Sequence record: NC_070870.1
Strand: one strand, 5' to 3'
DNA: 64,000 nt
Source: Escherichia phage phi G17
Notes under the pieces: generated by a model
Told to the model about the DNA's origin: nothing
Database searches by the model: none
Seen by the model: the letters and a program-made list of their open reading frames with translations, nothing else
Position numbers and translations under genes: made by a program
Shown here: piece by piece, positions 2,657 to 57,394 of the stretch
Layout: every line of letters begins with the position of its first letter
Position numbering within the stretch: position 1 is the stretch's first letter

Positions 2657-2672
2657 ACAGGAATAAGATGAT

Positions 2673-8610: not shown

Positions 8611-10566
8611 ATGAGCCAGATAACATGGAGAAATGTTGATGCACCTAACTTCTCTGGAGTTGGTGACAGCATTCGCACATTTGGCAGCATGATTGGTAAC
8701 GCTACCTCCGGCTTGAGTGATGCACTGGGTAATTTCCAGAACGCTGCCAAGCAGGAGGCCGGCAATGCCGTCATGATGAATGCTATGCAATACCAAGACC
8801 CGAATGAGTACCGTAATGCTTTAGCATCCGGTGCATTGTTTCAGGGGGTTGACCCTTCACTAGTAAACCAGCGTACTCTCCAGAATCTGGATGAACGTGC
8901 AGGTACATTACTGACTCAACAAGGACAGCAGGGAACCAATGACTACAATGCCTATCGCTTTGGTCGTTTACAGGATACTAACTCTGCATTAGATAATGCT
9001 TCCCCTGCTATTCGTTTGCTGTCTGAGGCTTATCAGTCCGGTGACCAGAGCCGTATTAATGCAGCATTGGGACAGACTCGTGAGGCACTGTCTGCTCTCC
9101 CTGCTGACCAGCAACTTGAGATGCTGGGTCGTCTGCAAGGGCAAGGTGGTCAGGCTATTGGTCAGGCACAGAACCGTTTTGATTTGGGTGTTGCTCAACG
9201 TAATGATGCTGATAGTCAGGCAGCTATGGGTGTAATGTCACAGATTACCCGTGGTGCTGAGAACCCTAATGATGCTCGTCTGTTGGCTGAAGCATACAGT
9301 AAGAACCTGTCTCCAGTTGCACAAGCACGTTTGCAGGGATTACTGGCTAGTGCTTACCCGGGTGTATACGGTAACGGTGTTGGTGCTGCTTCTGCACCAG
9401 GTACTGCTGGTACTCGTCAGGGTTCTCCTTATGATGTTACTTACCAGTTTGCTGGTACATCCACTCCTATTACTCAAATGAGTATTGGTGATGTAATCAA
9501 ACACCAGGAAGGTATGAAGACGAACCAAGGTGCTTCACCTGTTGGTGCATTCCAGATTAACCAAGCTACCCTACAAGACTTCGCTCCCAAAGTTCTTGGT
9601 TCAGATTGGCAAAGCCAGCCACTCTCTGCTGAGAACCAGGATAAGATTGGTAAGGCTATCTTCGAACAGCGTAAGAATGGCAACCTTAAAGATACTTGGG
9701 CTGCACTTCCTAATGCTGGTGTTGGTGCTTATAAAGACATGACATGGGAAGAGATTAAACCAATCATTGCACAAGCAGAAGTTGGTGCTAATCCATTGGC
9801 TATGCGGCAGACTGCACAAGGCAACCAAGCCGTATCTACCTTGGCTCAAGGTATGATTGGTACTCGTTCTATGCAGGATAACACCGGCAGTCTTAACACT
9901 GACTTCCTTGGTACAGTCACTGATAATACCCCGGTAGGTGAGATTACTAACCGTCTGTTGGAAGGTGACTTTAAAGGTGCTGACCGTAACTGGGTACTGA
10001 ACCGACTGACTGATATTTCTCAACGTGGGAATATGTCACCAGCTATGGCTGCTGCTGTTATGCAACGTGCACAGACTGGCGTACCGGAGGGTTGGATTAG
10101 TCGTGCCATAGATGGGGTTAACCCATTCATTACTAATGAAGCTGGTAATGGTATGCGTCTTAATGACCGTCAGGTAGAACAGTTAATTGAAGGTGTAAAA
10201 CGAGGTGAACCACTGGAAGGTAGTGTACGTAACCTTGGACGTGCTCAAGCTGCACAGAGCATTCAGGCAGCACAGACTGCTTATGATGCTGCTGTAGCTG
10301 CACTGACTAATACCCAGAACAAGATTAACACTGGACAGAGTGGTCTTACTGCACTGTTACCTGCACGACAGGAAGCTGTTACTAGAGCTGCTGCAATGCT
10401 CCAGGCTGCACAGGCACAAGTACAAGCTGACCCAGCTAACCTGGCTCCAAGAGGTTTCCAGTCACAGTCTAGTGTGGACCGGGCACGAGCTAAGGAAGAT
10501 GAAGAACGTGCTGCACGGTACTTACGTCAGGCACAAGGTTTACCTGAGTATATGCAACCTCGCTAA
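8611..10566 (+). CDS. Virion protein (651 aa), Q/A-rich with coiled-coil-like C-terminus
   Basis: ATG at 8611; lies immediately upstream of the giant polymerase gene; followed by a strong terminator. Confidence 0.55.
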   Translation: MSQITWRNVDAPNFSGVGDSIRTFGSMIGNATSGLSDALGNFQNAAKQEAGNAVMMNAMQYQDPNEYRNALASGALFQGVDPSLVNQRTLQNLDERAGTLLTQQGQQGTNDYNAYRFGRLQDTNSALDNASPAIRLLSEAYQSGDQSRINAALGQTREALSALPADQQLEMLGRLQGQGGQAIGQAQNRFDLGVAQRNDADSQAAMGVMSQITRGAENPNDARLLAEAYSKNLSPVAQARLQGLLASAYPGVYGNGVGAASAPGTAGTRQGSPYDVTYQFAGTSTPITQMSIGDVIKHQEGMKTNQGASPVGAFQINQATLQDFAPKVLGSDWQSQPLSAENQDKIGKAIFEQRKNGNLKDTWAALPNAGVGAYKDMTWEEIKPIIAQAEVGANPLAMRQTAQGNQAVSTLAQGMIGTRSMQDNTGSLNTDFLGTVTDNTPVGEITNRLLEGDFKGADRNWVLNRLTDISQRGNMSPAMAAAVMQRAQTGVPEGWISRAIDGVNPFITNEAGNGMRLNDRQVEQLIEGVKRGEPLEGSVRNLGRAQAAQSIQAAQTAYDAAVAALTNTQNKINTGQSGLTALLPARQEAVTRAAAMLQAAQAQVQADPANLAPRGFQSQSSVDRARAKEDEERAARYLRQAQGLPEYMQPR

Positions 10567-10584
10567 AATACTTCATACTAATAA

Positions 10585-10606
10585 AAGCCCTCCGGGGCTT
10601 TTTTCT
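10585..10606 (+). terminator. Intrinsic terminator AAGCCC-tccg-GGGCTT + TTTTCT
   Basis: Hairpin followed by T-run 19 nt after the stop at 10566. Confidence 0.7.
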
Positions 10607-10669
10607 TACACTGGCTTACTGTAGAGTAGGCTTCCTATATACGATATAAGTTTGAACAGGAAACATGCT

Positions 10670-13600
10670 ATGTCAACATTTGACCGTCTGGCAGGTTTCG
10701 CAGACAGCATCACTAATGCTAAGCAAGTCGATGTCTCTACTGCAACCTCTCAGAAGCAAGCTGCTCAAGGGCAAAGCCCTTTCCAATTAACCCCAGAGAA
10801 TGCTTACAATCTCCAGACTGGACGAGTAGGTAATCTTGGAACTGGTGCATTCGAACCAGGTTCACTTCAGGCTGATTTCACTCAAGCCTCTCCATTAGAA
10901 ATTATTAATAAGTACGGTAATGAGCAAGGTCTACAGATTCTTAATAGCCGAGCTAATGCTGCTGATGTTGTACGTCAGGACTTATCTAAACAGCGTACTA
11001 ACGCAGAAGCATTTGGCGATACTCTTTCTGGTGTTGGTCTTGGTGTTGCTAATACCCTTGGGGGCATTGCTGCTCTTGGCACAGGTCTGGTCAATGATAA
11101 TGCCGGGGCATCCATTGCTTCCGGGATGGATTGGCTGAATGAAGGTGTACGCAATCTCCAGTCTGATGCACTGAACGCTAATCGTAATGTTGTTCAGAAT
11201 CAGAACCAGATTACTGCACAAGAGAACCAGAAACTTTACGAACAAGATATTAAGAATGGGGAGAATGACTTAGTTGCCTCCTTGTCTCGCATTGGTCGTG
11301 ACGCTTTTGATTCTGTTGCTAATACACTTGATAATGGTATGGCTGCTTCCGATGGACTGAGTGAAGGCATTGGTTCCCTCTTTACCGGTGGCCCACTTAT
11401 CCGTGGTGTATCTGCACTTGGTAAAGTAATGGTAGGAGGTGATAAAGCTGTTAAGGGTATTACCTTAGCTGCTGAGTTAGGTTCACGTCCTGCACAGGTT
11501 GCACTGTCTGCCGGTCGTGTTGCTGCACCTGCTGTAGCAATCGGTGGTATGGAAGCTGGTGGTGCATACCAACAGACTGCTTCTGAAATCATGAAGATGT
11601 CCCATCAAGAATTGGCAAGTAAGTCTCCTGTTTACCAACAACATATTGCTGATGGTTTATCTCCTGATGAAGCACGTCGTCAGACTGCATCTGAAACAGG
11701 TATCACTGCTGCTGGCTTAACTGCTCCAGTTGCTGCTGCCACCGGTCCACTGGTATCTCGCTTTGAACTTAACCCACTTAAGGTAGGTTCACTGGCAGGT
11801 GCTGGTTCTAATATGCTGCGTGAAACAGTTGAAGAAGGTATTCAATCCGGCTTCGGACAGTTCGCACAGAACACTGCAATCAAGGAAAATGTTGATGCAT
11901 CCCGTGATACCCTCAAAGGGGTCGGTGAACAAGCAGGTCTGGGTGCACTCTATGGCTTCGGTAGTGCTGGAGTTGCTCAAGCTCCAGGTGCAACTGTTAA
12001 AGCTGCTGGTGCTGCCGTTGCTCCTGCTGTACGTACTACCCTGGCTGGTGCTTCTCTGGTTGGTAATGCATTAGCAAAAGCTGCCTCCCCTATTACTAAC
12101 ATCTTGGTTCAACGTGGCGAAGAAGTTGCTAAGCGTAATGAACAAGCGTCCCCTGTAGCAGATGCTACGGTTAGTGCTGCTGCACAGGAAGCTACTGCTC
12201 AGTCAGAACAAGCACAAGCAACTGTACAGGAAGCAGTAGATGCAATGGACATTACTCCTGAAGAGAAAGCTGCTGCTACTCAATATGCTTCTGACTTAAC
12301 ACAGGCAATGAACTTTGACCCAGTAGAAATAGAACAAGCTAATCCAGCAATCCGTGAAGCTGTTTCTGGTTCCACTAACCGTGTAGAAGCTATTCAGAAG
12401 ATGGCTGACTTGGTTAATACTGCTGAAGACCCTAACGTTCAAATGGAAGCTGCAATCCAGATGTATGACAATATTATGTCCATGGATAGCTTCATTAACC
12501 GTGACCCGGGTGCTCTGGCTAATCTGGAACAAGGTTCTCCTGCTGCTGCAATCGTAGACCAGTTCTCTGGCTTGATGGCTAACGTACAGAATACACCGAA
12601 GGTACTTCGTGCATTCCGTGCTATCCATTCCATGATTCAGGAACAGGCTGAAGCAGGTAAACTGAAAGCTACTGAAGAAGCTAACCAAGCCCAAGCAAAC
12701 AACATTGCTATGGCTGCTGATGTATCTCCAGAAGTGCTGGATGCTGATTCAGTGAACATGGTTCTGAAACACGCTAGCGAAGGTAAGATTACTCTGGGGA
12801 ATCGTCAACGTGCTGCCCTGCAATCGGCTGCTGCTGTCTTACAGGGTGCACGCGAGTTCGACGCTAAAGCAGAAGAACTAGGCTTACGACCTCAAGACAT
12901 TGTTAGTAAACAGATTAAGACCGACGAGTCTCGCTCTAATGAAGGCCAGTACTCTGCGTTGCAACATGCGAAACGCATTCGTTCTGCGTACAACTCTGGT
13001 AACTTCGATTTGGCCTCCGCTTATCTGAACGACTTTATGCAGTTCGCCCAGCACATGCAGAATAAGGTCGGAGCGTTGAATGAGCATCTGGTTTCGGGGA
13101 ATGCGGATAAGAATAAGTCTGTTCACTATCAGGCTCTCTCGCCTTCCCGTGAATGGGTACGTAGTCGTACTGGCCTCGGTGTCAATCCTTACGATACCAA
13201 GTCTGTTAAGTTTGCCCAGCAAGTAGGACTGGAAGCCAAGACCGTAGCTGATATTGCTAACGCACTTGCTACGGCTTACCCGGAGCTTAATGTTTCTCAT
13301 GTGAATGTTACCTCGTTGGATTCACGTCTGGACAAGCCAGCTGCCCAGGTAGTTAAAGAGTTCCGTCAAGGTGGTCTTGATGCCACTCAGTCTCAACAGA
13401 CTAATGAACCAGTGAATCAGGTTGATGAAACTCCTGCACCAGTGCAAGAGACTGCCCCCACTGTACAGCCTAAAGCTGAGCCGGTGGTAGAAAATAAACC
13501 TGCTCCTACTAAGGATACTAGTTCAAAAACAGAAGAAGTCTCTACTACTAAGTCTGAAACAGTGGATGCTACCCTCACTAATGAGGATACCACCCAGGAA

Positions 13601-16600
13601 GTAGCTGAAACTAAAACGGAAATGGAATCAGTGTTCCCTGTCTATAACAATGAAAAAACACCGAACCAGTTCCTGAAAGCATTTACTCTGCCGGAAGAAC
13701 CTAAGTCCCGTACCATTGGTTCTGAATCTCCTTTGACTGATGTTAAGCAAGCACTGTCTTCTGCTGCTCGCTTTGAAGCATTCACTCAAAAAGAAAATAA
13801 CGCTCTCACAGGTGATGTGATGAAACGTTATCAGGACTTGATGGACTTTGGTGAAACACTGAAGACTACTTTGTCTGACCGTCTGGCTAAGTTCCTTGCT
13901 AACAAGAATGTTGGTAAACGTTTTGCAGAAGGTACTGAAGCTAACCGTTGGGTAGGTGGAAAACTGCTGAATATCGTTGAGCAAGATGGTGATACCTTTA
14001 AGTTCAATAACCAGTTGTTAGAGACTGCTGTACTTGCTGGTCTGCAATGGCGACTGACTGCTACGCAGAATGCTGCCGTTAAAGATATGAAAGACGTAGC
14101 TGCTATTACTGGTGTAGAAGCATCTCTGTTACCAGAAGGTATTCTGGCTGAGTTTGAGAATGCTCAGACTCTGGTTGAAGCTACTAACTCACTGGCTCAA
14201 AAGATAGAATCCTATTGGGGTTTGAATCGTAATGCTAATGCACCACTGGGTTATACCAAAGGTATCCCAATGGCAATGGCTACAGAGATTCTGTCTTCCC
14301 TTATTGAGATGGGTGAAGTTAAAGAGTCTATGCTGGATGTGTCTGAAATTGACCCAGCCTCTAATAAGACTGTTGGTCTGTATACCATTGAAAAGCTGGA
14401 TGACAACGATGCTATTAACAAATTCCCTACTGCTATTGAGGAAGCTGTCCTCTTAGAACCAGAAGAGAAAATGTACTTTGGTGATGACATTCCTTCCGTG
14501 GCTCAAACTCAGTTACGTAACCCTGCTGTTAAGAATACCCCTGAACAGAAAGCTGCACTGAAAGCTGAACAGGCTACTGAGTTCCGTGTACACATGCCGA
14601 TGGTTAACTTCTATGAAGCAATGGGCCGTGAAAACATTCTGGAACTGATGGGTGCTGGTACTCTTAACCCTGAGCTACTGAACGTGAATACTGCTAAGTC
14701 ACTGGAAGGTAAAAACCTATCCGTGTCTATGGCATATGATTCTCTGTTCGGTGTTATCAGTCAGGTACGGGAACAAGAAGCAGGACTGGATACTCCTATC
14801 CATTATGGTTACAACATGACCCGTGTCGGTCGTATGCAGATGCTTGGCAAGAATAACCCACAATCCAGTAAACTGGTTCGTGAAGCAATTCTGCCAACCT
14901 TCTCTACTATCGACTTGAGTAATGAAAACAGCCAAACGTTCTCTGACTTCCAGTTAGGTCTGGCTCAGGCATTAGGTATCAAGGTACATAACATGTCCCG
15001 TGAAGCTATGTCTGAAAAGTTGACCAAGGCTCTGGAAGGTAATCTGAAACCTGCTGTTGATATGATGGTTGAGTTTGATAAGTCTGGTCACTTACCTACT
15101 GATGCAGTAGATATTCTGAAGACTTCTCTGGGTGGTGATAAATCCTTCGTAGCTCTCATGGCTCTGATGGAATATGCCCGTTACCTGAACAGTGACGACC
15201 GTGCCAACTTTAATACCCCACTGTACGTTGAAGCTGATGGTGTAACCAACGGCCCAATCAACGCAATGGTATTAATGACTGGTGGTAAGTTCACTCCAGA
15301 CTGGATTAAGAACACTGCTAAAGGTGGTCTTTTCTTTGATAAAGCTGGTAAGACTATGAACGAACATCGTTCACAGGATGACAGTGTTGACTTGTATGAA
15401 GCATCTACCAATGGTCTGCAACAAGCACTGAATGAGTTACGTACTACTTACCGTAACAACGTTCCTGTTATGAACCAGATGAATCATCTCCAGAAGATAA
15501 TGGACCTGTTCATTAAAGACTTTAACCTGAATGAAGACGGTACTCTGGACCTGAAACGTGGTATCGCTAAGAACCCACTCACCATTACCATCTATGGTTC
15601 TGGTGCACGTGGTATTGCTGGCAAGATGGTTAGTGCAATTACTGATACCATCTATGAACGCTTCAGCGACGTTCTGCAAGCACGTGCTGCTGACCCTAGC
15701 ATTTCCCCAGCTATGGCAATGTTTGGTAAGGAGGCTGCGTCTGAGGCCGATGCTCAGGCTATGCTGGATACTTTCCTTACTTCTATGGAAGCACTGACAG
15801 GTAATGTTCCAGTTATGCGTAAGGGTGAATTGTCTATTCAGCAAGCAGAAGGTGCACTGACTGGTAAGTTAGACCCTCAGAAGTTTACTGTATCTGGCAA
15901 TGCTCTGAAGAACTTACAAGAGAACATGCTCCACCTGTTCGTTGAACCAATGCGTACCGGTATCCAGAATACTGTTGGTGAAGGTCTGATGCACTCTACT
16001 GAGAACTTGCAGAAGGCTACCCAGATTCAATCTCTGGTATTGCAGGATATGTTCCAACAAGCAGTACAGGCTAAGCTGGCAGAAAAAGAAAATGACCCAA
16101 CCTGGAAGAAGGGTGATTTCTTAACTCAGAAAGAACTGAATGAAATCCAGGAATCATTATCTCCACTGGCCCCAATGATTGAGACTGGTTCACAGACTTT
16201 CTACATTGCTGGTAGTGAGAATACTGATGTTGCTAACCAAGTACTGGCTACCAACTTAGATGACCGTATGCGTGTGCCAATGAGCATCTATGCTCCTTCA
16301 CAAGCAGGTGTTGCAGGTATTCCATTTATGACCATCGGTACTGGTGATGGCATGATGATGCAGACTCTTTCTACTATGAAAGGTGCTCCGAAGAATACCC
16401 TGAAAATCTTTGATGGTATGAACATTGGTATCAATGACATCACTGATGCAAGTCGTAAAGCAAATGAGGCTGTATACACTTCTTGGCAGGGGAACCCTAT
16501 CAAGAATGTTTACGACTCCTACGCTAAGTTCATGAAGAATGTAGACTTCAGCAAACTGTCTGATGAAACTAAACAGGCTATCGCTAAGTCTGCTCTGGAA

Positions 16601-19600
16601 TATGACCAGCGTGAAGGTGCTACAGATGACCTGTTACGTGTAGGTGCTGAGCAGATTGAACGTAACCTGCGTAACATTGCTCTGGGTGTAGATATTCGCC
16701 ACAAAGTAATGAACCAGGTACAGACCACTGTTGACCAGATGGCTGCTGTAGGTGCTCCTTATGTGAACAACGGTAAAATCTCTCTGGAAGGTCTGACGGT
16801 AGACCAGCAAGTAGCTAAGCTGAACGAACTGTTTGATGCTGAATTAAACAAGCGTCGTGATGCAGTACGTGCTGCTAAAGCAGAACCAGTGAAAGAAGTA
16901 CCGGCAATGGAACAAGTTGGTCGTGTGCTTAAGTCAGGTGTACGTCTGCTGTCCAATACTGCCATTACTAAACTGGCTAAAGAGATGTCCCCAGAACAGC
17001 AAGCAGTATTGAAAGAAGTACAGAACTCCCTTGCTGCTAAAGACTACAAGGTTGTTTATGGTACTCCTGCTCAACTGGATGCTTATGCTATTGAGAAGAA
17101 CATTACTCGCCCAGCACCGGAAGATATTGAAGCTGCTGAAGCAGGTAATGCATACGGCTGGACTAACTTTGATGATAAGACTATCTACTTAGTTACCCCT
17201 TCCTTAGAGACTCTGGTTCATGAATTGGTACATGCTTCTACTTTTGAATCTGTACTGGCTCACTACGAGGGTACTCCTAATGAAGCAGTCCAGAATATTG
17301 AAGACTTGATGAACCAGTTCCGTGCTCTGGATGTTAAGGATGAATCCCCGGCAGTACGTGAAGCATATGCTGATGCACTCAATACCATTAACGGTCACTT
17401 GTCTAATGGTTTCATTGAGCCAGCAATGTCTAAAGCTGCTGCACTGAATGAGTACATGGCATGGGGCTTAACCAACCGTGAACTGATTGGTAAGCAGAAG
17501 AAGACCACTGCACTGAAAGCTATGGTTCAGTCTGTGTATGAAGCAATTAAGCGTCTGGTATTTGGTCGTAAGAAAGCACCTGTTAATGCAGATGATATGT
17601 TCTCTGGCTTACTGTTTAACTCATCTGTAGTTATGCGTGGACAGGCTCCTACTGCTGCTGTATCCAAGGACACTACCTTGTTCCATAGCAAAGCATATGG
17701 TGACAATACTCGTCTGGAAGAGTTAGGGCAGACCTTTGATAAGCTGATTACTAACTACATTGGTTCTGAACCAGTACAGCAAGTAATCCGTAAAGGTAAG
17801 TTTTCTGATGCAGTAGTGAATGCAACTAAAGTAACCCGTGATGTTCAGGCTCATGGCTTTACTATGAATATGCAGGAACAGCGACTGTTCACTAATATTG
17901 TTGCTGCTTTGGCTACTGAAGCTGCTATTAGTCCGGCTGCTCTTTCTCGTGCACAGGAATATTATGCACATGTTACTAAGAATCTGACTGTTGAAGCATT
18001 CATGACAGACCCGGATAGTACTAACCCTGCTGACCGTTATTATGCACAGCAGAAGTTCGATACCATCATGGGTGCTAATAATATTGAGTATGATGCACAG
18101 GGTCGTTCTTCCTTACTGCCTACCTTTGTGGCTCTGGCAATGGTAAGTGAAGATGTACGTAATGTACTGGCTGACATTCCTGTTATGAAAGCAGATAAGC
18201 AATCCGGTAATACCGTTGATGCAATGCTGACTAACATTGGTACTGCTGCAATGGCTAGCCTGAATGCTCGTGTAGCAGGTGACACTAAAGCTACTAACGT
18301 ACAGGAAGGTATGGATGCACTGGCTCAGACAATCATGCAGACTAGTCTTAATGCACAGTCATTCTATGATTCCATTGCTACCCCTAGTGGTAATGCTATC
18401 GACCGTGCTAACCAGTATCTGGTGGACTCTATTGATGTACTGTCCACCCGTGCTTTAGATGGTGCACGTGAGGTTGCAGCTAATACCAAGAATCCGTTGG
18501 TTAAGGGTGCTGCTCATGCTGCTCAACTGGTAGCTGCCATTGCTACAGAGAAGAATGGTGCAATCGTAGCTGAAGGTGTTATGGCTGCAATGAACCAGGG
18601 TAAAGCATGGCAACCTTTCCATGACCTGGTTAATGACTTAACCGGTCGTACTAAGAGCAATGCTTCTGTGTATGATTTAATTAAAGCAGTTCGTGCACAG
18701 GTACAGGCTGACCGTCAACAGTTCCGTGAACATCTGCCTACCACTATCGCATCTAAGTTCAGCCGTAAGCTGACCAATGATGAATGGAAAGCAATGCACA
18801 CTGGTATGGGTAAAACTGATTTGGCTGTTCTGCGTGACACTATGTCTCTGGCTGAAATCCGTGACTTGCTGACTGACCAGAAGATTGTTGACCGTGAAGT
18901 GAATAAGCTGGAAGCAGATTTGCAGAAGCAAGCTGGTCGTAACTGGCCCCTGATTAATCGTAAATCTAAGCAACTGGCTCAGTACATGATTAACGGTACA
19001 GTCGGTAATAACCTGCTGCGTAATGCTACTGCAATCTCCCGTATGCTGGGTGAACGTCAGGCTGCTCGCTCTACCGTAGATGTAGCTCAACTGGATAAAC
19101 TGATTACTCTGTATGCACTGGAAGCAATGAACAAGAAAGACCGTGAGATGTTATCTTCACTGGCTCAATCAGAAGTTGATGGAATGGACTTTGTTACTTC
19201 TTATCTGGTTGGTCAGCGTAAAGATGAAATGGCTAAAGCCAAATCTGATATGCGTGCAACCCTGAACCAGTACAAAGGGCATATCCCTAGCGAGAACAAA
19301 CAGGGTGTTAATCTGATTGTTGCTGAAGATAGTCAGTTTGCTGATTTGATTGAGAAGTCTTATGTACGTCTGGGTACTTATCAGGGTAGCTCTGCTAACC
19401 GTGGTCCGGCACGTAGCTACTACTTCGCACCAGTACAGGCACAGGCTCCATTCTCACAGGGTATCCTACAGAACGTTCGTAATACTGCTGGTGGTGTAGA
19501 CCTCGGCACAGGTTTTACGATGGGTTCAATGGTGGCTGGTCGTATTACTGACAAGCCTTCTGTAGACCGTATTACTAAAGCACTGGCTCGTGGTGAGCGT

Positions 19601-21022
19601 GGTAATGAACCACTGCTGCCTGTATATGATGACAAAGGTAATGTGGTTGCCTATGAGCAATCAATTGACCCTAACATGCTGAAGCACATTGAAGGCGAGA
19701 ATCACCTTGCCCGTGCAATCGGTGTATGGCGTGGTCGTCAGGTTGAAGAAGCTAAGGCACAGCGTTTCAACGATATGCTGATTGAGAACCTGCATAGCAT
19801 GTACGAGAACGACATTAAAATGTCTGCCTCTAATAAGTCCCAGTACGTGAACCTTCTTGGTTCTAAACTGGACCCAGTAACTGCTGATGCGCTTAAGCTG
19901 ATGAACAGTGAAACTCGTCAGAAAGCAGAGAGCCTGTTTGGTGAGGGCGAACTATGGGTACGTCGTGACATGCTGAATGATGCACTAGGTTATCGTGCAG
20001 CTTCAGTTGGTGATGCATGGTCTGGTAACTCTCGTTGGTCCCCGGAAACTCTGGATACCTTCAAGAAAGCTATGCTGGGTGTATTCGGCAACCGTGCTTA
20101 TAAGTACACAATGGGTGGAGAGAACCTGGTTCAGAACTTAGTTAAAGAAGCCAAGACTCTGATTGTAGTTAAGTCAGTAGTCGTACCTGCTGTTAACTTC
20201 TTGGCCAACCTTTACCAGATGGTTGCTCGTGGTGTACCGGTTAAGAACATTGCTAAGAGCATTCCACAGAAAACTGCTGAGATTAACCAGTACCTGAAAT
20301 CTCGTCTGCGTCAGGTGGATGCAGAAGCAGAATTACGTGCAGCTACTAACCCGAACCAGATTCGTAAACTTAAGGCTGAGATTCAGTCCATCTCTGATAG
20401 CCATAAGCGTATGAGTATCTGGCCCCTGTTGGAAGCTGGTGAGTTCTCTTCAATTGCAGATGCTGGTATTGGTCGTGATGACATCCTGATTACTGAGGGT
20501 AAGATTCACGAATACATGGATAAGCTGGCTGATAAGTTGCCCAAGTCTGTACGTACTGCTGGTCGTTATGCACTTATCACTAAGGATACTGCTCTGTTCC
20601 AGGGCATCCAGAAGACGGTTGAGTACTCTGACTTTATTGCTAAAGCAATCATCTACGATGAACTGACCCAGCGTAAAGGTAAGACTCGTGAAGAGGCACT
20701 TGGTCGTGTAACGGAAGAGTTCGTTAACTATGACCGTCTGCCTGGTCGCTTCCGTGGATATATGGAAAGCGTTGGTTTAATGTGGTTCTACAACTTTAAG
20801 ATTCGTTCTGCAAAAGTTGCAGTATCCATGATTCGTAATAACCCAGTACATGCAGCAATGGCTATGTTGGCTCCAACTCCTACCATGTTTGGTAATGTTG
20901 GCTTACCTATTCAGGACAACATCTTCAGCATTGCAGCACAGGGTAACATGGGTTACTCGTGGGGCTTTGGTCAGGGACTTCGTGCTCACAACCTTAACCC
21001 TTGGCTGAACTTAACTAACTAA
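10670..21022 (+). CDS. Virion-encapsidated RNA polymerase (vRNAP, about 3450 aa)
   Basis: Giant ORF; central region carries T7-like motifs: VEADGVTNGPINAM (motif A-like), RGIAKNPLTITIYGSGARG (motif B, R/K...YG), KIFDGMNIG (motif C-like); track start at 10652 is TTG, an ATG at 10670 has AGGA 9 nt upstream. Confidence 0.85.
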   Translation: MSTFDRLAGFADSITNAKQVDVSTATSQKQAAQGQSPFQLTPENAYNLQTGRVGNLGTGAFEPGSLQADFTQASPLEIINKYGNEQGLQILNSRANAADVVRQDLSKQRTNAEAFGDTLSGVGLGVANTLGGIAALGTGLVNDNAGASIASGMDWLNEGVRNLQSDALNANRNVVQNQNQITAQENQKLYEQDIKNGENDLVASLSRIGRDAFDSVANTLDNGMAASDGLSEGIGSLFTGGPLIRGVSALGKVMVGGDKAVKGITLAAELGSRPAQVALSAGRVAAPAVAIGGMEAGGAYQQTASEIMKMSHQELASKSPVYQQHIADGLSPDEARRQTASETGITAAGLTAPVAAATGPLVSRFELNPLKVGSLAGAGSNMLRETVEEGIQSGFGQFAQNTAIKENVDASRDTLKGVGEQAGLGALYGFGSAGVAQAPGATVKAAGAAVAPAVRTTLAGASLVGNALAKAASPITNILVQRGEEVAKRNEQASPVADATVSAAAQEATAQSEQAQATVQEAVDAMDITPEEKAAATQYASDLTQAMNFDPVEIEQANPAIREAVSGSTNRVEAIQKMADLVNTAEDPNVQMEAAIQMYDNIMSMDSFINRDPGALANLEQGSPAAAIVDQFSGLMANVQNTPKVLRAFRAIHSMIQEQAEAGKLKATEEANQAQANNIAMAADVSPEVLDADSVNMVLKHASEGKITLGNRQRAALQSAAAVLQGAREFDAKAEELGLRPQDIVSKQIKTDESRSNEGQYSALQHAKRIRSAYNSGNFDLASAYLNDFMQFAQHMQNKVGALNEHLVSGNADKNKSVHYQALSPSREWVRSRTGLGVNPYDTKSVKFAQQVGLEAKTVADIANALATAYPELNVSHVNVTSLDSRLDKPAAQVVKEFRQGGLDATQSQQTNEPVNQVDETPAPVQETAPTVQPKAEPVVENKPAPTKDTSSKTEEVSTTKSETVDATLTNEDTTQEVAETKTEMESVFPVYNNEKTPNQFLKAFTLPEEPKSRTIGSESPLTDVKQALSSAARFEAFTQKENNALTGDVMKRYQDLMDFGETLKTTLSDRLAKFLANKNVGKRFAEGTEANRWVGGKLLNIVEQDGDTFKFNNQLLETAVLAGLQWRLTATQNAAVKDMKDVAAITGVEASLLPEGILAEFENAQTLVEATNSLAQKIESYWGLNRNANAPLGYTKGIPMAMATEILSSLIEMGEVKESMLDVSEIDPASNKTVGLYTIEKLDDNDAINKFPTAIEEAVLLEPEEKMYFGDDIPSVAQTQLRNPAVKNTPEQKAALKAEQATEFRVHMPMVNFYEAMGRENILELMGAGTLNPELLNVNTAKSLEGKNLSVSMAYDSLFGVISQVREQEAGLDTPIHYGYNMTRVGRMQMLGKNNPQSSKLVREAILPTFSTIDLSNENSQTFSDFQLGLAQALGIKVHNMSREAMSEKLTKALEGNLKPAVDMMVEFDKSGHLPTDAVDILKTSLGGDKSFVALMALMEYARYLNSDDRANFNTPLYVEADGVTNGPINAMVLMTGGKFTPDWIKNTAKGGLFFDKAGKTMNEHRSQDDSVDLYEASTNGLQQALNELRTTYRNNVPVMNQMNHLQKIMDLFIKDFNLNEDGTLDLKRGIAKNPLTITIYGSGARGIAGKMVSAITDTIYERFSDVLQARAADPSISPAMAMFGKEAASEADAQAMLDTFLTSMEALTGNVPVMRKGELSIQQAEGALTGKLDPQKFTVSGNALKNLQENMLHLFVEPMRTGIQNTVGEGLMHSTENLQKATQIQSLVLQDMFQQAVQAKLAEKENDPTWKKGDFLTQKELNEIQESLSPLAPMIETGSQTFYIAGSENTDVANQVLATNLDDRMRVPMSIYAPSQAGVAGIPFMTIGTGDGMMMQTLSTMKGAPKNTLKIFDGMNIGINDITDASRKANEAVYTSWQGNPIKNVYDSYAKFMKNVDFSKLSDETKQAIAKSALEYDQREGATDDLLRVGAEQIERNLRNIALGVDIRHKVMNQVQTTVDQMAAVGAPYVNNGKISLEGLTVDQQVAKLNELFDAELNKRRDAVRAAKAEPVKEVPAMEQVGRVLKSGVRLLSNTAITKLAKEMSPEQQAVLKEVQNSLAAKDYKVVYGTPAQLDAYAIEKNITRPAPEDIEAAEAGNAYGWTNFDDKTIYLVTPSLETLVHELVHASTFESVLAHYEGTPNEAVQNIEDLMNQFRALDVKDESPAVREAYADALNTINGHLSNGFIEPAMSKAAALNEYMAWGLTNRELIGKQKKTTALKAMVQSVYEAIKRLVFGRKKAPVNADDMFSGLLFNSSVVMRGQAPTAAVSKDTTLFHSKAYGDNTRLEELGQTFDKLITNYIGSEPVQQVIRKGKFSDAVVNATKVTRDVQAHGFTMNMQEQRLFTNIVAALATEAAISPAALSRAQEYYAHVTKNLTVEAFMTDPDSTNPADRYYAQQKFDTIMGANNIEYDAQGRSSLLPTFVALAMVSEDVRNVLADIPVMKADKQSGNTVDAMLTNIGTAAMASLNARVAGDTKATNVQEGMDALAQTIMQTSLNAQSFYDSIATPSGNAIDRANQYLVDSIDVLSTRALDGAREVAANTKNPLVKGAAHAAQLVAAIATEKNGAIVAEGVMAAMNQGKAWQPFHDLVNDLTGRTKSNASVYDLIKAVRAQVQADRQQFREHLPTTIASKFSRKLTNDEWKAMHTGMGKTDLAVLRDTMSLAEIRDLLTDQKIVDREVNKLEADLQKQAGRNWPLINRKSKQLAQYMINGTVGNNLLRNATAISRMLGERQAARSTVDVAQLDKLITLYALEAMNKKDREMLSSLAQSEVDGMDFVTSYLVGQRKDEMAKAKSDMRATLNQYKGHIPSENKQGVNLIVAEDSQFADLIEKSYVRLGTYQGSSANRGPARSYYFAPVQAQAPFSQGILQNVRNTAGGVDLGTGFTMGSMVAGRITDKPSVDRITKALARGERGNEPLLPVYDDKGNVVAYEQSIDPNMLKHIEGENHLARAIGVWRGRQVEEAKAQRFNDMLIENLHSMYENDIKMSASNKSQYVNLLGSKLDPVTADALKLMNSETRQKAESLFGEGELWVRRDMLNDALGYRAASVGDAWSGNSRWSPETLDTFKKAMLGVFGNRAYKYTMGGENLVQNLVKEAKTLIVVKSVVVPAVNFLANLYQMVARGVPVKNIAKSIPQKTAEINQYLKSRLRQVDAEAELRAATNPNQIRKLKAEIQSISDSHKRMSIWPLLEAGEFSSIADAGIGRDDILITEGKIHEYMDKLADKLPKSVRTAGRYALITKDTALFQGIQKTVEYSDFIAKAIIYDELTQRKGKTREEALGRVTEEFVNYDRLPGRFRGYMESVGLMWFYNFKIRSAKVAVSMIRNNPVHAAMAMLAPTPTMFGNVGLPIQDNIFSIAAQGNMGYSWGFGQGLRAHNLNPWLNLTN

Positions 21023-21029
21023 ATAAAAA

Positions 21030-21058
21030 AGCCCCTCTAATGAGGGGCTTTGCTTTTT
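21030..21058. terminator. Bidirectional intrinsic terminator AGCCCCTC-taat-GAGGGGCT flanked by A-run and T-run
   Basis: 8-bp GC stem, T-run on plus strand (ttgcttttt) and T-run on minus strand (ttttttattt); sits at the convergence of vRNAP and minus-strand genes. Confidence 0.7.
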
Positions 21059-21072: not shown

Positions 21073-21276
21073 TCATCTTTCATTAGGAAGTTTTCCTGTT
21101 TCGATAATACTTCTCAGAGTTTCCTCTGTAGGGAACCACAGAAATGAGAAGTAGAGTTTCTTAGCCACGTAACGAGTTACTCCCAGCTTCTCTGCGATTT
21201 CATCGAATGAATATGTACGGACGGTATTGTTGAGAATGGCTTCACGAACAACAGAGGTAATAGATACTTGTGTCAT
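21073..21276 (-). CDS. Small putative HTH DNA-binding protein (67 aa)
   Basis: ATG at 21276 with AGGAAA upstream; helix-turn-helix-like segment FDEIAEKLGVTRYVAKK. Confidence 0.45.
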   Translation of the reverse strand: MTQVSITSVVREAILNNTVRTYSFDEIAEKLGVTRYVAKKLYFSFLWFPTEETLRSIIETGKLPNER

Positions 21277-21300
21277 AATAGTTTCCTACAGATATGAGAA

Positions 21301-21330
21301 AGCCCTCACTAGGAGGGCTTGTTTTGTTTT
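21301..21330. promoter_or_regulatory. Hairpin AGCCCTC-actag-GAGGGCT followed by GTTTTGTTTT (terminator-like, strand ambiguous)
   Basis: 7-bp stem; lies about 25 nt upstream of minus-strand gene start 21276; shares stem/loop core with hairpin at 43732. Confidence 0.35.
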
Positions 21331-21976: not shown

Positions 21977-22135
21977 TTAGTAGCTTTTAATAGATAGCTG
22001 TATTTGAGCATTATAGTCTGCTCATACTCACACTCTTCTGTCGAAGAATATGTTTACAATATCTAGAGTGCCGGACTGTCTTACCGGCATTGTCTTTAGA
22101 GTGCTAAGCAATCAGGACTATGTTCTCTATTAATG

Positions 22136-51132: not shown

Positions 51133-51951
51133 TTAGTCTTCGTTTACTAATTCTTTATCAGCGAACTCCAGTACAGCTTTGTTGTAACTGGTTCCTTGAT
51201 AGTTGATGTGATAGCCCTGAGCGTAAGTACGCCCACGTTTATCGAATTTGTGACCTAGTGAGAAGTTATTACCCTCTTGGGTCACTAACTCCATTACTTC
51301 CTTAGCAGTACGGCTGTACTTCTCAAAGGCTTTGACACGTTTCTCATAGTCCTGACGGGTTTCACCCTCTTTAGGTTTATCCATGTTAGGACGGGAGTCT
51401 TTTACATAGTTAGCAACGTCCCAGTTAATACAGAGACGTTGGTTGTTCATACGGTTGATGTGGTCAAGACAGACATCCATCTCATGATGGTTCTTCTTGA
51501 GGATGATTGAGCCTTTGGACTCATAGTAACCAGTATCCCGGTTAGTCAGGACAGGCTTAGGTTTACTTACGATAGGCAATGGATACTGGAATGCCTCCAG
51601 TTCCATCTGAACATCTTCACTAATCTCATAGATAACACCGAACTTGTCGATGGTAGGGTCATAGTTGAAGCAGTCATTCTCTGCCATCTTATACAGACAG
51701 TCAGCGATATACTGAGCATCATCTGAGTGACTCATGAGAGAGCCAATCATAGTCTGAATGTCAGCACGTTTATGTAGGGCAATCTGCACCATTGCATCAA
51801 TGAGCAGCTTATAATCAATTTCCAGGTAGGCAGCGAATGCCTTAAAGTCAATTTCTTTGGATTCCTCGAACTCTTTCCTCATGCGAGGCAAAAGTTGATT
51901 CTTATTAAATAGTTTTTCGAGGGTTTTCTGGTGCTCAATGGATGCGTACAT
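51133..51951 (-). CDS. T7-like RNA polymerase N-terminal-half homolog; RNAP II small-subunit-like (272 aa)
   Basis: HKFDKRGRTYAQG resembles the T7 RNAP DWRGRVYA motif; directly upstream of the catalytic subunit. Confidence 0.75.
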   Translation of the reverse strand: MYASIEHQKTLEKLFNKNQLLPRMRKEFEESKEIDFKAFAAYLEIDYKLLIDAMVQIALHKRADIQTMIGSLMSHSDDAQYIADCLYKMAENDCFNYDPTIDKFGVIYEISEDVQMELEAFQYPLPIVSKPKPVLTNRDTGYYESKGSIILKKNHHEMDVCLDHINRMNNQRLCINWDVANYVKDSRPNMDKPKEGETRQDYEKRVKAFEKYSRTAKEVMELVTQEGNNFSLGHKFDKRGRTYAQGYHINYQGTSYNKAVLEFADKELVNED

Positions 51952-52001
51952 AGCTTCTTTCCTTTAATGAGTTAATTACCACAAGGTGCGGAGCACCCTT
52001 C

Positions 52002-54478: not shown

Positions 54479-54862
54479 TTAGAAAGTCAGTTTACGAGCA
54501 TATTTATTCTCGTCTGCTGGGATGTCAGCAGCCTCTGCTTTCACACGACGAAGTTGAACTTGCAGGTTAATGATACCTTCTTCACCTGGTTCCAGGTTCT
54601 GAGCATATTCGATTAACTGTTCCAGCAAATCGTTCTGTGCACAACGCATAGCACGGAAGTCAGCATTGCTGCTGTTAGTAGGCAGTGCTTCCTGAGTATC
54701 CAGTGGAATACCAGTAGGCAGAGAGATGAACTTCTCTTCTTCAGAGCCTTCGTTAGCAACATAACCAATGTTCAACCAGAACTGAGCCTTAGGCTTAGCA
54801 GCTTTAGTTTCAGTGGTAGCAGCAGCGTTAGATTGACCGAAAGTGAATTTTTGAATAGACAT
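54479..54862 (-). CDS. Hypothetical early protein (127 aa from ATG at 54862; track start 54961 is GTG)
   Basis: GGAGAG upstream of ATG. Confidence 0.45.
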
Positions 54863-54992
54863 TTTGTACTCTCCAGATAAATGATTGTTTGATTTATGGG
54901 TTTGTCTGTCGGTGACTAAACCCAAGAAAAGACTTAAGATTTCAATGATTAGTGGATTCACATGAATCCTTTAGACGCGGAGCGTCTGGTTT

Positions 54993-55286: not shown

Positions 55287-55376
55287 GATTTTCTATCCTT
55301 AAAGTAGATAAATATCTACTTAGACTATCTATCTAATCTTTATAAAAGGAGACTCCGAAGAGCCTCCTATATTGAT

Positions 55377-55700
55377 TTAGTCTTTAGTCAGGATGTCGAT
55401 TACTTTTGAATATTCTGCGTTATAGATACGAGCGTTCTCAGAATCTTTGCAGAATTCTTCGATACTTTTCTTACGCAGAGTTTCGTTCATAGCTGTTTCT
55501 TCAGCTAATTTGTTTACGAATGTATGCATTTCTAATTTAGTACGGATGGCTTGTTTCTCAGCCATAGTAGATACATATGAGTTAAGCATACCAACTGCTT
55601 TAGTAGCTGTGCCGAATGTATCAGCAACAGTAGTAGCAGCAGAGTTAACAGTACCAAGTAAAGTTCCTGCGGTCATACGTACAGTAGCGGTAGTAGTCAT
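55377..55700 (-). CDS. Hypothetical early protein (107 aa)
   Basis: GGAG 8 nt upstream of ATG. Confidence 0.5.
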   Translation of the reverse strand: MTTTATVRMTAGTLLGTVNSAATTVADTFGTATKAVGMLNSYVSTMAEKQAIRTKLEMHTFVNKLAEETAMNETLRKKSIEEFCKDSENARIYNAEYSKVIDILTKD

Positions 55701-55900: not shown

Positions 55901-55905
55901 CTCAC

Positions 55906-57391: not shown

Positions 57392-57394
57392 AGC

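What the first reader, a model, noticed from the sequence alone, without database searches (positions are those of the whole stretch)
10670..21022. Giant virion RNA polymerase with centrally located T7-like motifs
A 3450-aa ORF is more than 16 percent of the window. Recognisable polymerase motifs occupy only the central part, so the large N- and C-terminal regions (presumably ejection/encapsidation domains) are uncharacterised sequence space. The gene ends the late operon and is bracketed by strong terminators.
Basis: partly seen in the sequence, partly recalled or inferred. Interest (0 to 1): 0.35.

Follow-up and report, generated by a model that had tools for sequence, protein, structure and literature searches.

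The report
N4-type giant virion RNA polymerase gene
This 3450-residue gene is the ordinary, already well-studied virion-packaged RNA polymerase of an N4-like (Gamaleyavirus) coliphage, injected with the DNA to transcribe the first phage genes; it is real but not new.

Summary
The ORF is real: ATG 10670 to TAA 21022, + strand, 3450 aa. It aligns end to end, without rearrangement, with coliphage N4 gp50, the virion RNA polymerase (vRNAP). Overall identity is 66.8%. It is 97% identical in protein (95% in DNA) to the annotated vRNAP of Gamaleyavirus PhAPEC5.

All polymerase catalytic residues and the promoter-reading residues R119 and W129 are conserved.

The gene closes the + strand late cluster (gp59 to gp50 order). 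Intrinsic-terminator hairpins flank it at 10583-10606 and 21028-21051. The window also holds three hairpin promoters of the type this enzyme reads, at positions syntenic with N4 P1-P3.

The claim that the N- and C-terminal regions are uncharacterised is out of date. The C-terminal domain of N4 vRNAP was solved by cryo-EM in 2025-26 and autoinhibits the polymerase. Its HExxH zincin-like module was described in 2017. The N-terminal domain inserts into membranes but remains structurally unresolved.

One side observation: the HExxH module is homologous to part of phiKMV gp37, a T7 gp16-like ejection protein.

Verdict: already known, low interest.

The parts
10583..10606 (+). Intrinsic-terminator-like hairpin between the gp51 homologue and the vRNAP gene (AAAAGCCC-TCCG-GGGCTTTT plus T run)
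   Evidence: Fold -12.1 kcal/mol, z -2.9. Conserved in PhAPEC5, where it is annotated as a terminator, and in N4, with only the loop varying.
10638..10669 (+). Conserved 5' leader with ribosome-binding site AGGAAA (10658-10663)
   Evidence: GATATAAGTTTG.A..AGGAAAC is nearly invariant among window, PhAPEC5 and N4. The motif occurs only once in the window. Whether it holds a promoter is unknown.
10670..21022 (+). vRNAP gene (N4 gp50 orthologue), 3450 aa plus stop
10670..13372 (+). N-terminal domain, aa 1-901 (N4 aa 1-906): membrane association and genome injection, inferred by homology
   Evidence: 61% identical to N4. No Pfam hit. PHROG 2206. The glycine-rich, weakly hydrophobic stretch aligned to N4 aa 224-278 is present. 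aa 751-900 are 88% identical to N4. Function taken from PMC13434306 and PMC13492108.
13373..13615 (+). Linker 1, aa 902-982, low-complexity P/T/E/K-rich
   Evidence: 42% identical to N4 with length variation. PhAPEC5 has about 122 extra residues here.
13616..16879 (+). Polymerase (mini-vRNAP) domain, aa 983-2070. Catalytic D1523 is at 15236-15238 and D1915 at 16412-16414
   Evidence: 71% identical to N4. The crystal-structure chains 2PO4 and 3C2P match at 1685 bits. Four Pfam vRNAP domains. R1388, D1523, R1630, K1634, Y1642, D1915, R1084 and W1094 are conserved. The six catalytic residues are invariant in 35 diverged vRNAPs.
16880..16915 (+). Linker 2, aa 2071-2082
   Evidence: The equivalent N4 segment (aa 2102-2123) is disordered.
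16916..17647 (+). CTD-C1, aa 2083-2326: zincin-like module with H2184-E-L-V-H2188 (17219-17233) and E2261 (17450-17452)
   Evidence: HExxH and the downstream Glu are invariant in 35 vRNAPs. Homologous to phiKMV gp37 aa 327-560. Published as an MPTase (PMC5512222).
17648..21019 (+). CTD-C2, aa 2327-3450: alpha-helical domain that in N4 packs on the palm and fingers (autoinhibition) and is needed for encapsidation
   Evidence: 69% identical to the N4 CTD. Matches the solved structures 9PNR and 11GP. 2528 representative clusters, the best 150 all at the C-terminal end of their proteins, most of which are 3.2-4.1 kaa.
21028..21051 (.). Bidirectional intrinsic terminator between the convergent late (+) and middle (-) genes
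   Evidence: Annotated on both strands in PhAPEC5.
8611..10566 (+). gp51 homologue (651 aa): in N4 an ejection protein forming an outer-membrane complex
   Evidence: 49% identical to N4 gp51. PHROG 6126. Role from PMC13434306.
8155..8598 (+). gp52 homologue (147 aa): periplasmic-tunnel ejection protein in N4
   Evidence: 57% identical to N4 gp52. Role from PMC13434306.
55743..55757 (+). Hairpin promoter P1 homologue (ACATGC-GGA-GCATGT). The template is the + strand and transcription runs leftward into the gp1-like ORF 55700..55377
   Evidence: The flanks match N4 P1 (ATGTCCATAA...GTGTAACGTGT...AAGGTGGGGTAGG).
54973..54987 (+). Hairpin promoter P2 homologue (AGACGC-GGA-GCGTCT), upstream of the gp2-like ORF 54961..54479
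51985..51997 (+). Hairpin promoter P3 homologue (GGTGC-GGA-GCACC), 34 nt upstream of the RNAPII gp15-like ORF 51951..51133
   Evidence: N4 P3 lies at 4546-4562, 41 nt before gp15.

Best explanation
The ORF encodes the virion-encapsidated RNA polymerase (vRNAP, orthologue of N4 gp50) of a Gamaleyavirus (family Schitoviridae).

**Shown here**
- It is collinear with N4 gp50 over its whole length.
- It keeps every catalytic residue of the T7-like single-subunit polymerase core and the residues that read the -11G of hairpin promoters.
- It sits behind the gp53, gp52 and gp51 homologues, as in N4.
- The same window carries three 5-6 bp stem, GGA-loop hairpins at the positions of N4 promoters P1, P2 and P3.

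**Inferred by homology to experiments on N4**
- The protein is made late, and a few copies are packaged into the head through the C-terminal domain.
- At infection it is ejected through the tail as loosely linked modules, together with gp51 (outer-membrane complex) and gp52 (periplasmic tunnel).
- The N-terminal domain associates with the inner membrane and is needed for entry of the first part of the genome.
- The central domain transcribes the early genes (gp1, gp2 and RNAPII gp15/16) from hairpins extruded from supercoiled DNA.
- The C-terminal domain packs on the palm and fingers and keeps the enzyme autoinhibited until it is released.

The C1 module, with HExxH plus a downstream Glu, is a predicted zincin-like metallopeptidase of untested function.
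For: - **Homology to N4 gp50.** phmmer against PDB sequences aligns aa 1-3449 to residues 1-3499 of full-length N4 vRNAP (11gp, 9pnr) at 5010 bits. The mini-vRNAP crystal chains score 1685 bits.
- **Identity by domain (MAFFT).** 66.8% overall, NTD 61%, polymerase domain 71%, CTD 69%.
- **Close relatives.** Megablast finds 105 phage records. The best is PhAPEC5, 95.1% DNA identity over 100% of the query, annotated 'virion RNA polymerase'.
- **Conserved residues.** R424, D559, R666, K670, Y678 and D951 (mini-vRNAP numbering) correspond to R1388, D1523, R1630, K1634, Y1642 and D1915. R119 and W129 correspond to R1084 and W1094. The six catalytic residues are invariant across 35 vRNAPs that are 32-70% identical.
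- **Domain hits.** Pfam vRNAP_plug, vRNAP_dom, vRNAP_dom_2 and N4_RNAP_helical all score above their gathering thresholds. PHROG 2206 'virion RNA polymerase' covers all three thirds of the protein.
- **CTD contacts.** The salt-bridge pair D2012-R2279 is conserved as D1979 and R2230, and HELVH is conserved.
- **Synteny.** gp53, gp52 and gp51 homologues lie upstream and the late cluster follows N4 order.
- **Promoters.** Hairpins are syntenic with and alignable to N4 P1-P3, all on the template strand and all intergenic.
- **N4 mechanism.** PMC13434306 and PMC13492108.
Against: - Nothing in the sequence contradicts this explanation.
- No experiment exists for this particular phage. Packaging, ejection, activity and autoinhibition are all transferred from N4, which is 67% identical.
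- The heptamer GCGGAGC is not itself enriched: 3 found against 2.2 expected. The promoter assignment therefore rests on hairpin context, strand, intergenic position and synteny.
- K267 of mini-vRNAP is Asn here (N1232). Its role in hairpin contact is recalled from memory, not checked against a source. The adjacent Lys is kept.
- At sequence level the link to T7 RNA polymerase is weak. PHROG 414 scores E 1e-5, Pfam lists no T7-type RNA polymerase family, and a whole-protein profile retrieves no T7 RNAP from the PDB. 'T7-like' therefore rests on the motifs and on the published N4 crystal structure.
Confidence: 0.97

Rival explanations
1. The protein is above all a structural ejection protein: the counterpart of T7 gp16 or phiKMV gp37 that builds the inner-membrane part of the DNA ejectosome. 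On this view the polymerase is an inserted accessory module. This overlaps with the main explanation and differs only in which function is primary.
For: - It occupies the third position of the conserved ejection gene trio gp52-gp51-gp50.
- C1 is homologous to phiKMV gp37 aa 327-560: profile E 4e-7, hhalign probability 93.9% and E 1.6e-7, reciprocal tblastn E 4e-8.
- The NTD of N4 vRNAP enters nanodiscs.
- The literature already calls vRNAP 'gp16-like'.
Against: - Homology to gp37 covers only about 230 of 3450 residues. The hhalign run returned no other aligned region, and no T7 gp16 chain was retrieved from the PDB.
- The polymerase core is among the best conserved parts: aa 1801-1950 are 92% identical to N4.
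- The phage carries cognate promoters, so transcription is clearly under selection.
Confidence: 0.3
2. The giant ORF is an artefact: an assembly or annotation fusion of separate genes, or a decaying pseudogene whose polymerase no longer works.
For: - The protein database searched by the search for homologous proteins holds only fragments of related genes, of 955, 1043, 544 and 206 aa. This shows that such genes are often split by gene callers or assemblies.
Against: - The reading frame is uninterrupted for 3450 codons.
- It has the same length class as N4 gp50 (3500 aa) and as most of the 150 best representatives.
- 61 phage records cover at least 80% of the gene.
- All catalytic residues are intact.
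Confidence: 0.01
3. The C1 HExxH module is an active metallopeptidase that cuts the polyprotein, or a host target, after ejection. The functional polymerase in the cell would then be a processed fragment rather than the full-length chain. This is the 'polyvalent protein' model of Iyer et al. 2017.
For: - H2184, E2185, H2188 and E2261 are invariant in 35 diverged vRNAPs. 127 of 129 full-length representatives keep HExxH at the expected position.
- The predicted secondary-structure order (helix, three strands, HExxH helix, later Glu helix) fits the zincin description in PMC5512222.
- A stable, active mini-vRNAP fragment can be produced by proteolysis.
Against: - Full-length N4 vRNAP is purified intact and is active at 100 nM and 1 uM.
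- The 2026 structural papers call it 'unprocessed' and report neither bound zinc nor cleavage in the passages read.
- No Pfam peptidase family is hit.
- The AF2 model was too poor for a fold test.
Confidence: 0.2

Closest known systems
Escherichia phage N4 gp50, virion RNA polymerase (YP_950528; PDB 9PNR, 9PNQ, 11GP, 2PO4, 3C2P)
   Same: - Same length class (3450 vs 3500 aa) and the same order NTD, linker, polymerase, linker, CTD.
- 66.8% identity end to end.
- All catalytic and -11G-reading residues, the plug domain, HExxH and the D-R clasp are conserved.
- Same gene neighbours and convergent terminator.
- Same type and placement of hairpin promoters.
   Different: - Different genus (Gamaleyavirus vs Enquatrovirus).
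- Linker 1 is about 20 residues shorter and only 42% identical. The NTD segment aa 151-300 is only 41% identical.
- K267 is replaced by Asn.
- The P1 hairpin has a 6-bp ACATGC stem and a GGA loop, against a 5-bp GTTGC stem and a GAA loop in N4.
- There is an extra 97-aa ORF between gp1 and P2.
vRNAP of Escherichia phages vB_EcoP_PhAPEC5, PhAPEC7, IME11 and G7C-like relatives (Gamaleyavirus)
   Same: 92-95% DNA identity over the whole gene and 97.2% protein identity to PhAPEC5. The flanking genes and terminators are identical in arrangement.
   Different: PhAPEC5 carries an extra insert of about 122 aa, not low-complexity, in linker 1. By match length, vB_EcoS_Uz-1 does too. The window, PhAPEC7 and N4 lack it. 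No record in the August 2025 phage collection matches this gene at more than 95.1% mean DNA identity.
T7-like single-subunit RNA polymerases (T7 gp1, mitochondrial RNAP)
   Same: The T/DxxGR, A, B and C motifs with the two catalytic Asp, and the Lys and Tyr of motif B. The N4 homologue has a right-hand fold in crystal structures.
   Different: - Sequence similarity is barely detectable (PHROG 414 at E 1e-5, and no T7-type RNA polymerase family among the Pfam hits).
- About 2400 extra residues.
- Packaged in the virion.
- Reads DNA hairpins on single-stranded template rather than duplex promoters.
- Has a plug module and a mobile motif-B loop.
phiKMV gp37 internal core protein (PDB 9SFN chain G; analogue of T7 gp16)
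   Same: It shares a module of about 230 aa with the HExxHAAT and xE(L/F)xAWGL motifs, matching window aa 2094-2326. Both are the largest ejected internal proteins of short-tailed phages.
   Different: gp37 is 1337 aa and has no polymerase. No similarity was detected outside the C1 module.

Membership tests
Schitoviridae virion RNA polymerase (N4 gp50 family) | End-to-end collinear homology to N4 gp50 (about 3500 aa; NTD, polymerase domain, CTD) | tested here: met
   5010 bits, query aa 1-3449 against chain residues 1-3499. 66.8% identity, with indels only in the linkers and loops.
Schitoviridae virion RNA polymerase (N4 gp50 family) | Catalytic motifs T/DxxGR, A, B and C with R424, D559, R666, K670, Y678 and D951 (mini-vRNAP numbering) | tested here: met
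   All are identical, within identical local sequence, and invariant in a 35-sequence family alignment.
Schitoviridae virion RNA polymerase (N4 gp50 family) | Family-specific domains (plug insertion, helical domain, vRNAP domains) above the Pfam gathering score | tested here: met
   PF21624 99.5 bits, PF21894 336 bits, PF21867 191 bits, PF21769 189 bits, each against a cut-off of 27.
Schitoviridae virion RNA polymerase (N4 gp50 family) | Hairpin-promoter reading residues (R119 contacts -11G, W129 stacks on it) | tested here: met
   R1084 and W1094 are conserved. Their roles are described in PMC13492108.
Schitoviridae virion RNA polymerase (N4 gp50 family) | Gene context: last gene of the late cluster, after the gp53, gp52 and gp51 homologues, convergent with the middle genes | tested here: met
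Schitoviridae virion RNA polymerase (N4 gp50 family) | Cognate hairpin promoters (5-7 bp stem, 3-nt purine loop with central G) upstream of the early genes | tested here: met
   Three GC-GGA-GC hairpins at 55743, 54973 and 51985, on the template strand, intergenic, and syntenic and alignable with N4 P1-P3. The heptamer count alone is not significant.
Schitoviridae virion RNA polymerase (N4 gp50 family) | Packaged in the virion and ejected into the host; rifampicin-resistant early transcription | not testable with these tools
   Needs virion proteomics and infection experiments.
T7-like single-subunit RNA polymerase superfamily | Detectable sequence or profile similarity to T7-type RNAPs | tested here: inconclusive
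   PHROG 414 'RNA polymerase' scores E 1.1e-5 with no single stretch passing on its own. No T7-type RNA polymerase family appears among the Pfam hits at E<=0.01. The family profile retrieves no T7 RNAP chain from the PDB at E<=10. The relation rests on the motifs and on the published N4 crystal structures.
Zincin-like metallopeptidase (MPTase of polyvalent proteins, Iyer et al. 2017) | HExxH on one helix plus a conserved Glu on a later helix | tested here: met
   H2184, E2185, H2188 and E2261 are invariant.
Zincin-like metallopeptidase (MPTase of polyvalent proteins, Iyer et al. 2017) | Zincin fold (three-stranded sheet, N-terminal helix, two C-terminal helices) confirmed by structure comparison | tested here: inconclusive
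   The AF2 model has pLDDT 46.9. Its secondary-structure order fits the zincin description, but Foldseek finds only N4 vRNAP itself. No Pfam peptidase is hit.
Zincin-like metallopeptidase (MPTase of polyvalent proteins, Iyer et al. 2017) | Zinc binding and peptidase activity | not testable with these tools
   Not reported in the passages of the 2026 structural papers that were read.

The most novel reading that the evidence does not exclude
The invariant H-E-x-x-H...E module in CTD-C1 (aa 2184-2261) is a working metallopeptidase delivered with the DNA. Here it was found to be homologous to a segment of the phiKMV gp37 (T7 gp16-like) ejection protein. If active, it would process the vRNAP itself or cleave a host envelope or cytoplasmic target. 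It would then mark a common ancestry between schitovirus vRNAPs and the inner-membrane ejection proteins of Autographiviridae. The peptidase prediction was published in 2017. The specific gp37 link and any activity remain untested.
Probability: 0.2. Interest if true: 0.5.

Novelty: already known. Interest (0 to 1): 0.1.

Why it matters
It matters little as a discovery. The gene is the hallmark gene of Schitoviridae, is annotated in dozens of near-identical GenBank records, and has a 67%-identical homologue with crystal and cryo-EM structures.

Its practical value is for annotation.
- It fixes the window as a Gamaleyavirus genome. No phage record searched matches this gene at more than 95% DNA identity.
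- It sets the orientation of the late, middle and early regions.
- Together with the three hairpin promoters, it gives the complete early-transcription module.

Two questions about the family remain open: the structure of the NTD and whether the HExxH module is an enzyme. This sequence adds only conservation data to them.

Tried and rejected
- **Homologue searches for deep alignments.** The search for homologous proteins was run with the NTD, NTD aa 560-901 and C1. Each returned only 2-3 fragments, so no deep alignment that the structure predictor would accept could be built.
- **AlphaFold2 of the NTD.** Five-sequence alignment, mean pLDDT 40.4. Mostly helical and unusable, so no fold search was run.
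- **AlphaFold2 of C1.** pLDDT 46.9. Foldseek against the PDB found only N4 vRNAP 9PNT and 9PNR and no zincin, so the fold test is inconclusive.
- **Pfam on the terminal regions at E<=1.** Nothing for the NTD and only sub-threshold noise for the CTD.
- **CTD domains outside vRNAPs.** tblastn of C2 against phages gave 466 records; every row shown came from a phage genome of about 59-79 kb, and most are annotated as vRNAP. The exhaustive representative search gave 2528 clusters; in the best 150 the match reaches the C-terminal end of the protein, and most are 3.2-4.1 kaa. The PHROG 19273 hit was not followed further.
- **Shared late-promoter motif.** The conserved leader upstream of the gene occurs only once in the window. 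The sigma-70 scan found no promoter between the terminator and the start codon.
- **First hairpin search.** Restricting to GC(G/A)A(A/G)GC loops missed the promoters. Widening to any purine loop found them.
- **Hydropathy scan.** No 19-residue window above 1.4 (Kyte-Doolittle) in the NTD. The proposed membrane-spanning helices are only weakly hydrophobic.
- **PDB entry 9SFN.** A literature search for it found no paper. Its identity was established by tblastn instead.
Full report
**1. Observation**

The window has one very long + strand ORF. Its maximal form runs from TTG 10652 to 21022 (3456 aa). The ATG at 10670 gives 3450 aa, ends at TAA 21020-21022, is preceded by AGGAAA at 10658-10663, and aligns with Met1 of N4 gp50. 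GC skew changes sign near 21-22 kb, which marks the switch from + strand to - strand genes.

**2. Identity**

- Megablast against 50,697 phage records finds 105 matches, 61 of them covering at least 80% of the gene. The best are Gamaleyavirus phages: PhAPEC5 at 95.1%, PhAPEC7 at 94.1% and IME11 at 93.5%. Most annotate the gene as 'virion RNA polymerase'.
- The PhAPEC5 record has the same layout: gp53-like, gp52-like and gp51-like genes, a terminator, the vRNAP gene, a bidirectional terminator, then genes on the opposite strand.
- phmmer against PDB sequences aligns residues 1-3449 with residues 1-3499 of full-length N4 vRNAP at 5010 bits. The mini-vRNAP crystal chains score about 1685 bits over query 995-2069.
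- A three-way MAFFT alignment gives 66.8% identity to N4 and 97.2% to PhAPEC5.
- Using published N4 boundaries, the window protein divides as shown below.

| Region | Window aa | Identity to N4 |
|---|---|---|
| NTD | 1-901 | 61% |
| Linker 1 | 902-982 | 42% |
| Polymerase domain | 983-2070 | 71% |
| Linker 2 | 2071-2082 | not meaningful (12 aa) |
| CTD | 2083-3450 | 69% |

The only sizeable length difference from PhAPEC5 is an insert of about 122 aa in PhAPEC5's linker 1. The window, like N4, lacks it.

**3. Polymerase core**

- Residues defined by N4 genetics and structures are conserved within identical local sequence.

| mini-vRNAP residue | Window residue |
|---|---|
| R424 | R1388 |
| D559 | D1523 |
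| R666 | R1630 |
| K670 | K1634 |
| Y678 | Y1642 |
| D951 | D1915 |
| R119 | R1084 |
| W129 | W1094 |

- R119 and W129 contact and stack on the promoter base -11G (PMC13492108).
- K267 is Asn here, with the adjacent Lys kept.
- In an alignment with 34 representatives that are 32-70% identical, the six catalytic residues are invariant.
- Pfam assigns four vRNAP-specific domains at aa 1292-2025, all far above threshold, and nothing else.
- Direct sequence similarity to T7-type polymerases is marginal. PHROG 414 scores E 1e-5, no T7-type RNA polymerase family appears among the Pfam hits, and the family profile retrieves no T7 RNAP from the PDB. 'T7-like' is thus a motif- and structure-level statement resting on the N4 literature.

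**4. Flanking regions**

- PHROG 2206 ('virion RNA polymerase') covers all three thirds of the protein.
- tblastn finds NTD homologues in 224 phage records and CTD-C2 homologues in 466. Every row shown comes from a phage genome of about 59-79 kb, and most are annotated as vRNAP. The widely conserved NTD core is about aa 186-434.
- An exhaustive HMMER search with C2 finds 2528 representative clusters. In the best 150 the match reaches the C-terminal end of the protein, and most of those proteins are 3.2-4.1 kaa.
- These regions are therefore family-wide, not orphan sequence. They are also no longer uncharacterised.
  - Two 2026 papers give cryo-EM structures of N4 residues 1007-3500 (PMC13434306; PMC13492108).
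  - In these structures the alpha-helical CTD packs on the palm and fingers, holds the motif-B loop in the active site, and lowers activity.
  - The NTD is invisible in the maps. It is predicted to have membrane-spanning helices at aa 224-278, and it enters nanodiscs.
  - Genetic work cited in PMC13492108 assigns early genome injection to the NTD and encapsidation to the CTD.
- The clasp residues D2012 and R2279 correspond to D1979 and R2230 in the window.
- My own attempts to model the NTD and C1 failed for lack of an admissible deep alignment (pLDDT 40 and 47).

**5. The HExxH module**

- C1 carries HELVH at aa 2184-2188 (N4 2228).
- Of 129 full-length representatives, 127 keep HExxH at the expected position. 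H2184, E2185, H2188 and E2261 are invariant in the 35-sequence alignment. E2261 lies in a NE(Y/F)MAW motif.
- A profile of C1 hits PDB 9SFN chain G, 'Internal virion protein' of 1337 aa, at E 4e-7, aligning both motifs.
- tblastn identifies that chain as phiKMV gp37, the T7 gp16-like internal core protein. The same search reciprocally retrieves schitovirus vRNAPs at E 4e-8.
- hhalign of the family alignment against phiKMV gp37 gives probability 93.9% and E 1.6e-7 over window aa 2094-2326 and gp37 aa 327-560.
- The zincin-like nature of N4 aa 2130-2448 was already published by Iyer et al. 2017. They class vRNAP among 'polyvalent proteins' and propose that the peptidase processes them (PMC5512222).
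- The passages of the 2026 structural papers that I read mention the motif but report neither zinc nor cleavage.
- This is the one open functional question. It belongs to the family as a whole, not to this window.

**6. Regulatory context**

- Upstream of the gene, a hairpin at 10583-10606 followed by a T run folds at -12.1 kcal/mol. It is conserved in PhAPEC5 and N4, with only the loop varying, and so is the leader GATATAAGTTTG...AGGAAAC.
- Downstream, a 10-bp GC-rich hairpin at 21028-21051 with T runs on both strands folds at -19.5 and -17.7 kcal/mol. It separates the convergent late and middle genes.
- 'Bracketed by terminators' is therefore right.
- The conserved upstream terminator means gp50 is expressed either by read-through or from an unidentified promoter. 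Read-through would be a plausible way to make only a few copies per virion, but that is my inference. No sigma-70-like site was found there, and the leader motif is unique in the window.

**7. The enzyme's promoters are in the window**

- N4 P1, P2 and P3 are hairpins at 90-102, 557-573 and 4546-4562 of the N4 genome, with purine loops on the template strand. The P1 oligonucleotide comes from PMC13434306.
- The window holds three hairpins with GC-GGA-GC centres and 5-6 bp stems, at 55743-55757, 54973-54987 and 51985-51997.
- All three are on the + strand, which is the template for the - strand early genes, and all are intergenic.
- Each lies just upstream of the gp1-like, gp2-like and gp15-like (RNAPII) ORFs respectively.
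- They align with their N4 counterparts. The P1 flanks are nearly identical to those of N4.
- The heptamer count alone is not significant, at 3 found against 2.2 expected. The assignment rests on structure, strand, position and synteny.
- All three loops have a central G, which fits the conserved R1084 and W1094.

**8. Mechanism**

Shown here:
- orthology to N4 gp50;
- intact catalytic and promoter-reading residues;
- the ejection-gene neighbourhood;
- cognate promoters in the same window.

Inferred from N4 experiments:
- late synthesis of the protein;
- packaging of about four copies through the CTD;
- ejection through the roughly 30-35 A tail channel as loosely linked modules, together with gp51 and gp52;
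- membrane association through the NTD;
- transcription of the early genes from supercoil-extruded hairpins;
- autoinhibition by the CTD.

Untested: activity of the C1 zincin-like module.

**9. Verdict**

The finding is real and correctly interpreted, but it is the hallmark, long-studied gene of N4-like phages. It is present at 92-95% DNA identity in many annotated records, and a 67%-identical homologue has solved structures. Novelty: already known. Interest: low.

Noticed in passing
window 51985-51997, 54973-54987, 55743-55757 (+ strand = template): Three GC-GGA-GC hairpins syntenic with N4 early promoters P1-P3. They lie upstream of the gp15-like, gp2-like and gp1-like ORFs on the - strand. 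They are the cognate promoters of the vRNAP but lie 31-45 kb from the gene.
   Followed up: yes
window about 55760-55905: The left end of the N4-type genome map (P1, gp1) abuts further - strand ORFs at 55906-57709, and + strand-type composition resumes beyond about 58 kb. The window therefore appears to run across the junction of the genome ends, as in a circularly permuted or circularised assembly. Terminal repeats were not examined.
   Followed up: partly
L001 (PhAPEC5) vRNAP linker 1, aligned between window aa 966 and 967 (window nt about 13567-13570): PhAPEC5 has an insert of about 122 aa, not low-complexity, inside the flexible linker 1 (ETLNKYGDRRESPWLFADGTVVGSNGDH...). By match length, vB_EcoS_Uz-1 has it too. 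The window, PhAPEC7 and N4 lack it. It has no Pfam hit, and its function is unknown.
   Followed up: partly
window 17219-17452 (aa 2184-2261); L005 (phiKMV) gp37 aa 327-560: The CTD-C1 HExxH...E module is homologous to a segment of phiKMV gp37, the T7 gp16-like internal core protein (PDB 9SFN_G). Profile E 4e-7, hhalign probability 93.9%, reciprocal tblastn E 4e-8. The zincin prediction itself was published in 2017. I did not find the gp37 link in the papers read.
   Followed up: yes
representatives P0063 and P0141 (metagenomic vRNAP relatives), C1 region: Two distant vRNAP representatives carry a large insertion inside C1 that holds a second HExxH motif (DHEMIHAF and IHEMTHIAF). This suggests a nested second peptidase-like module.
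   Followed up: no
window 10583-10669: The terminator hairpin and the leader GATATAAGTTTG.A..AGGAAAC just before the vRNAP start codon are conserved from N4 to Gamaleyavirus, although the surrounding intergenic sequence diverges. The leader motif is unique in the window. It may be a dedicated promoter or a translation signal.
   Followed up: partly
window 21073-21276 (-): A 67-aa ORF lies directly after the bidirectional terminator (PHROG 9565, unknown function, E 1e-32). In PhAPEC5 the gene at this position is a 162-aa gp49-like (DUF2829) protein. A further hairpin lies at 21300-21320, followed by a 130-aa ORF at 21401-21793 (PHROG 322).
   Followed up: partly
window 22134-22212 (-): A single tRNA-Ile gene, which ARAGORN reports with anticodon AAT, at the same relative place as the tRNA-Ile annotated in PhAPEC5.
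   Followed up: no
window 54993-55286 (-): A 97-aa ORF between the gp1-like gene and the P2 hairpin. It has no counterpart in the N4 layout, where gp1 is followed by P2 and then gp2. A hairpin at about 55347-55370 precedes it.
   Followed up: no
window 12920-13369 (aa 751-900): The last 150 residues of the NTD are 88% identical to N4, against 61% for the NTD as a whole. This rivals the palm region (aa 1801-1950, 92%) as the most conserved stretch of the protein. No function is assigned to it.
   Followed up: no
window 18626-20860 (CTD aa 570-1315 of the CTD segment): The CTD also matches PHROG 19273 (unknown function, profile length 4846) at E 3e-26. This may be a family of still larger virion proteins that share the C2 domain.
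   Followed up: no
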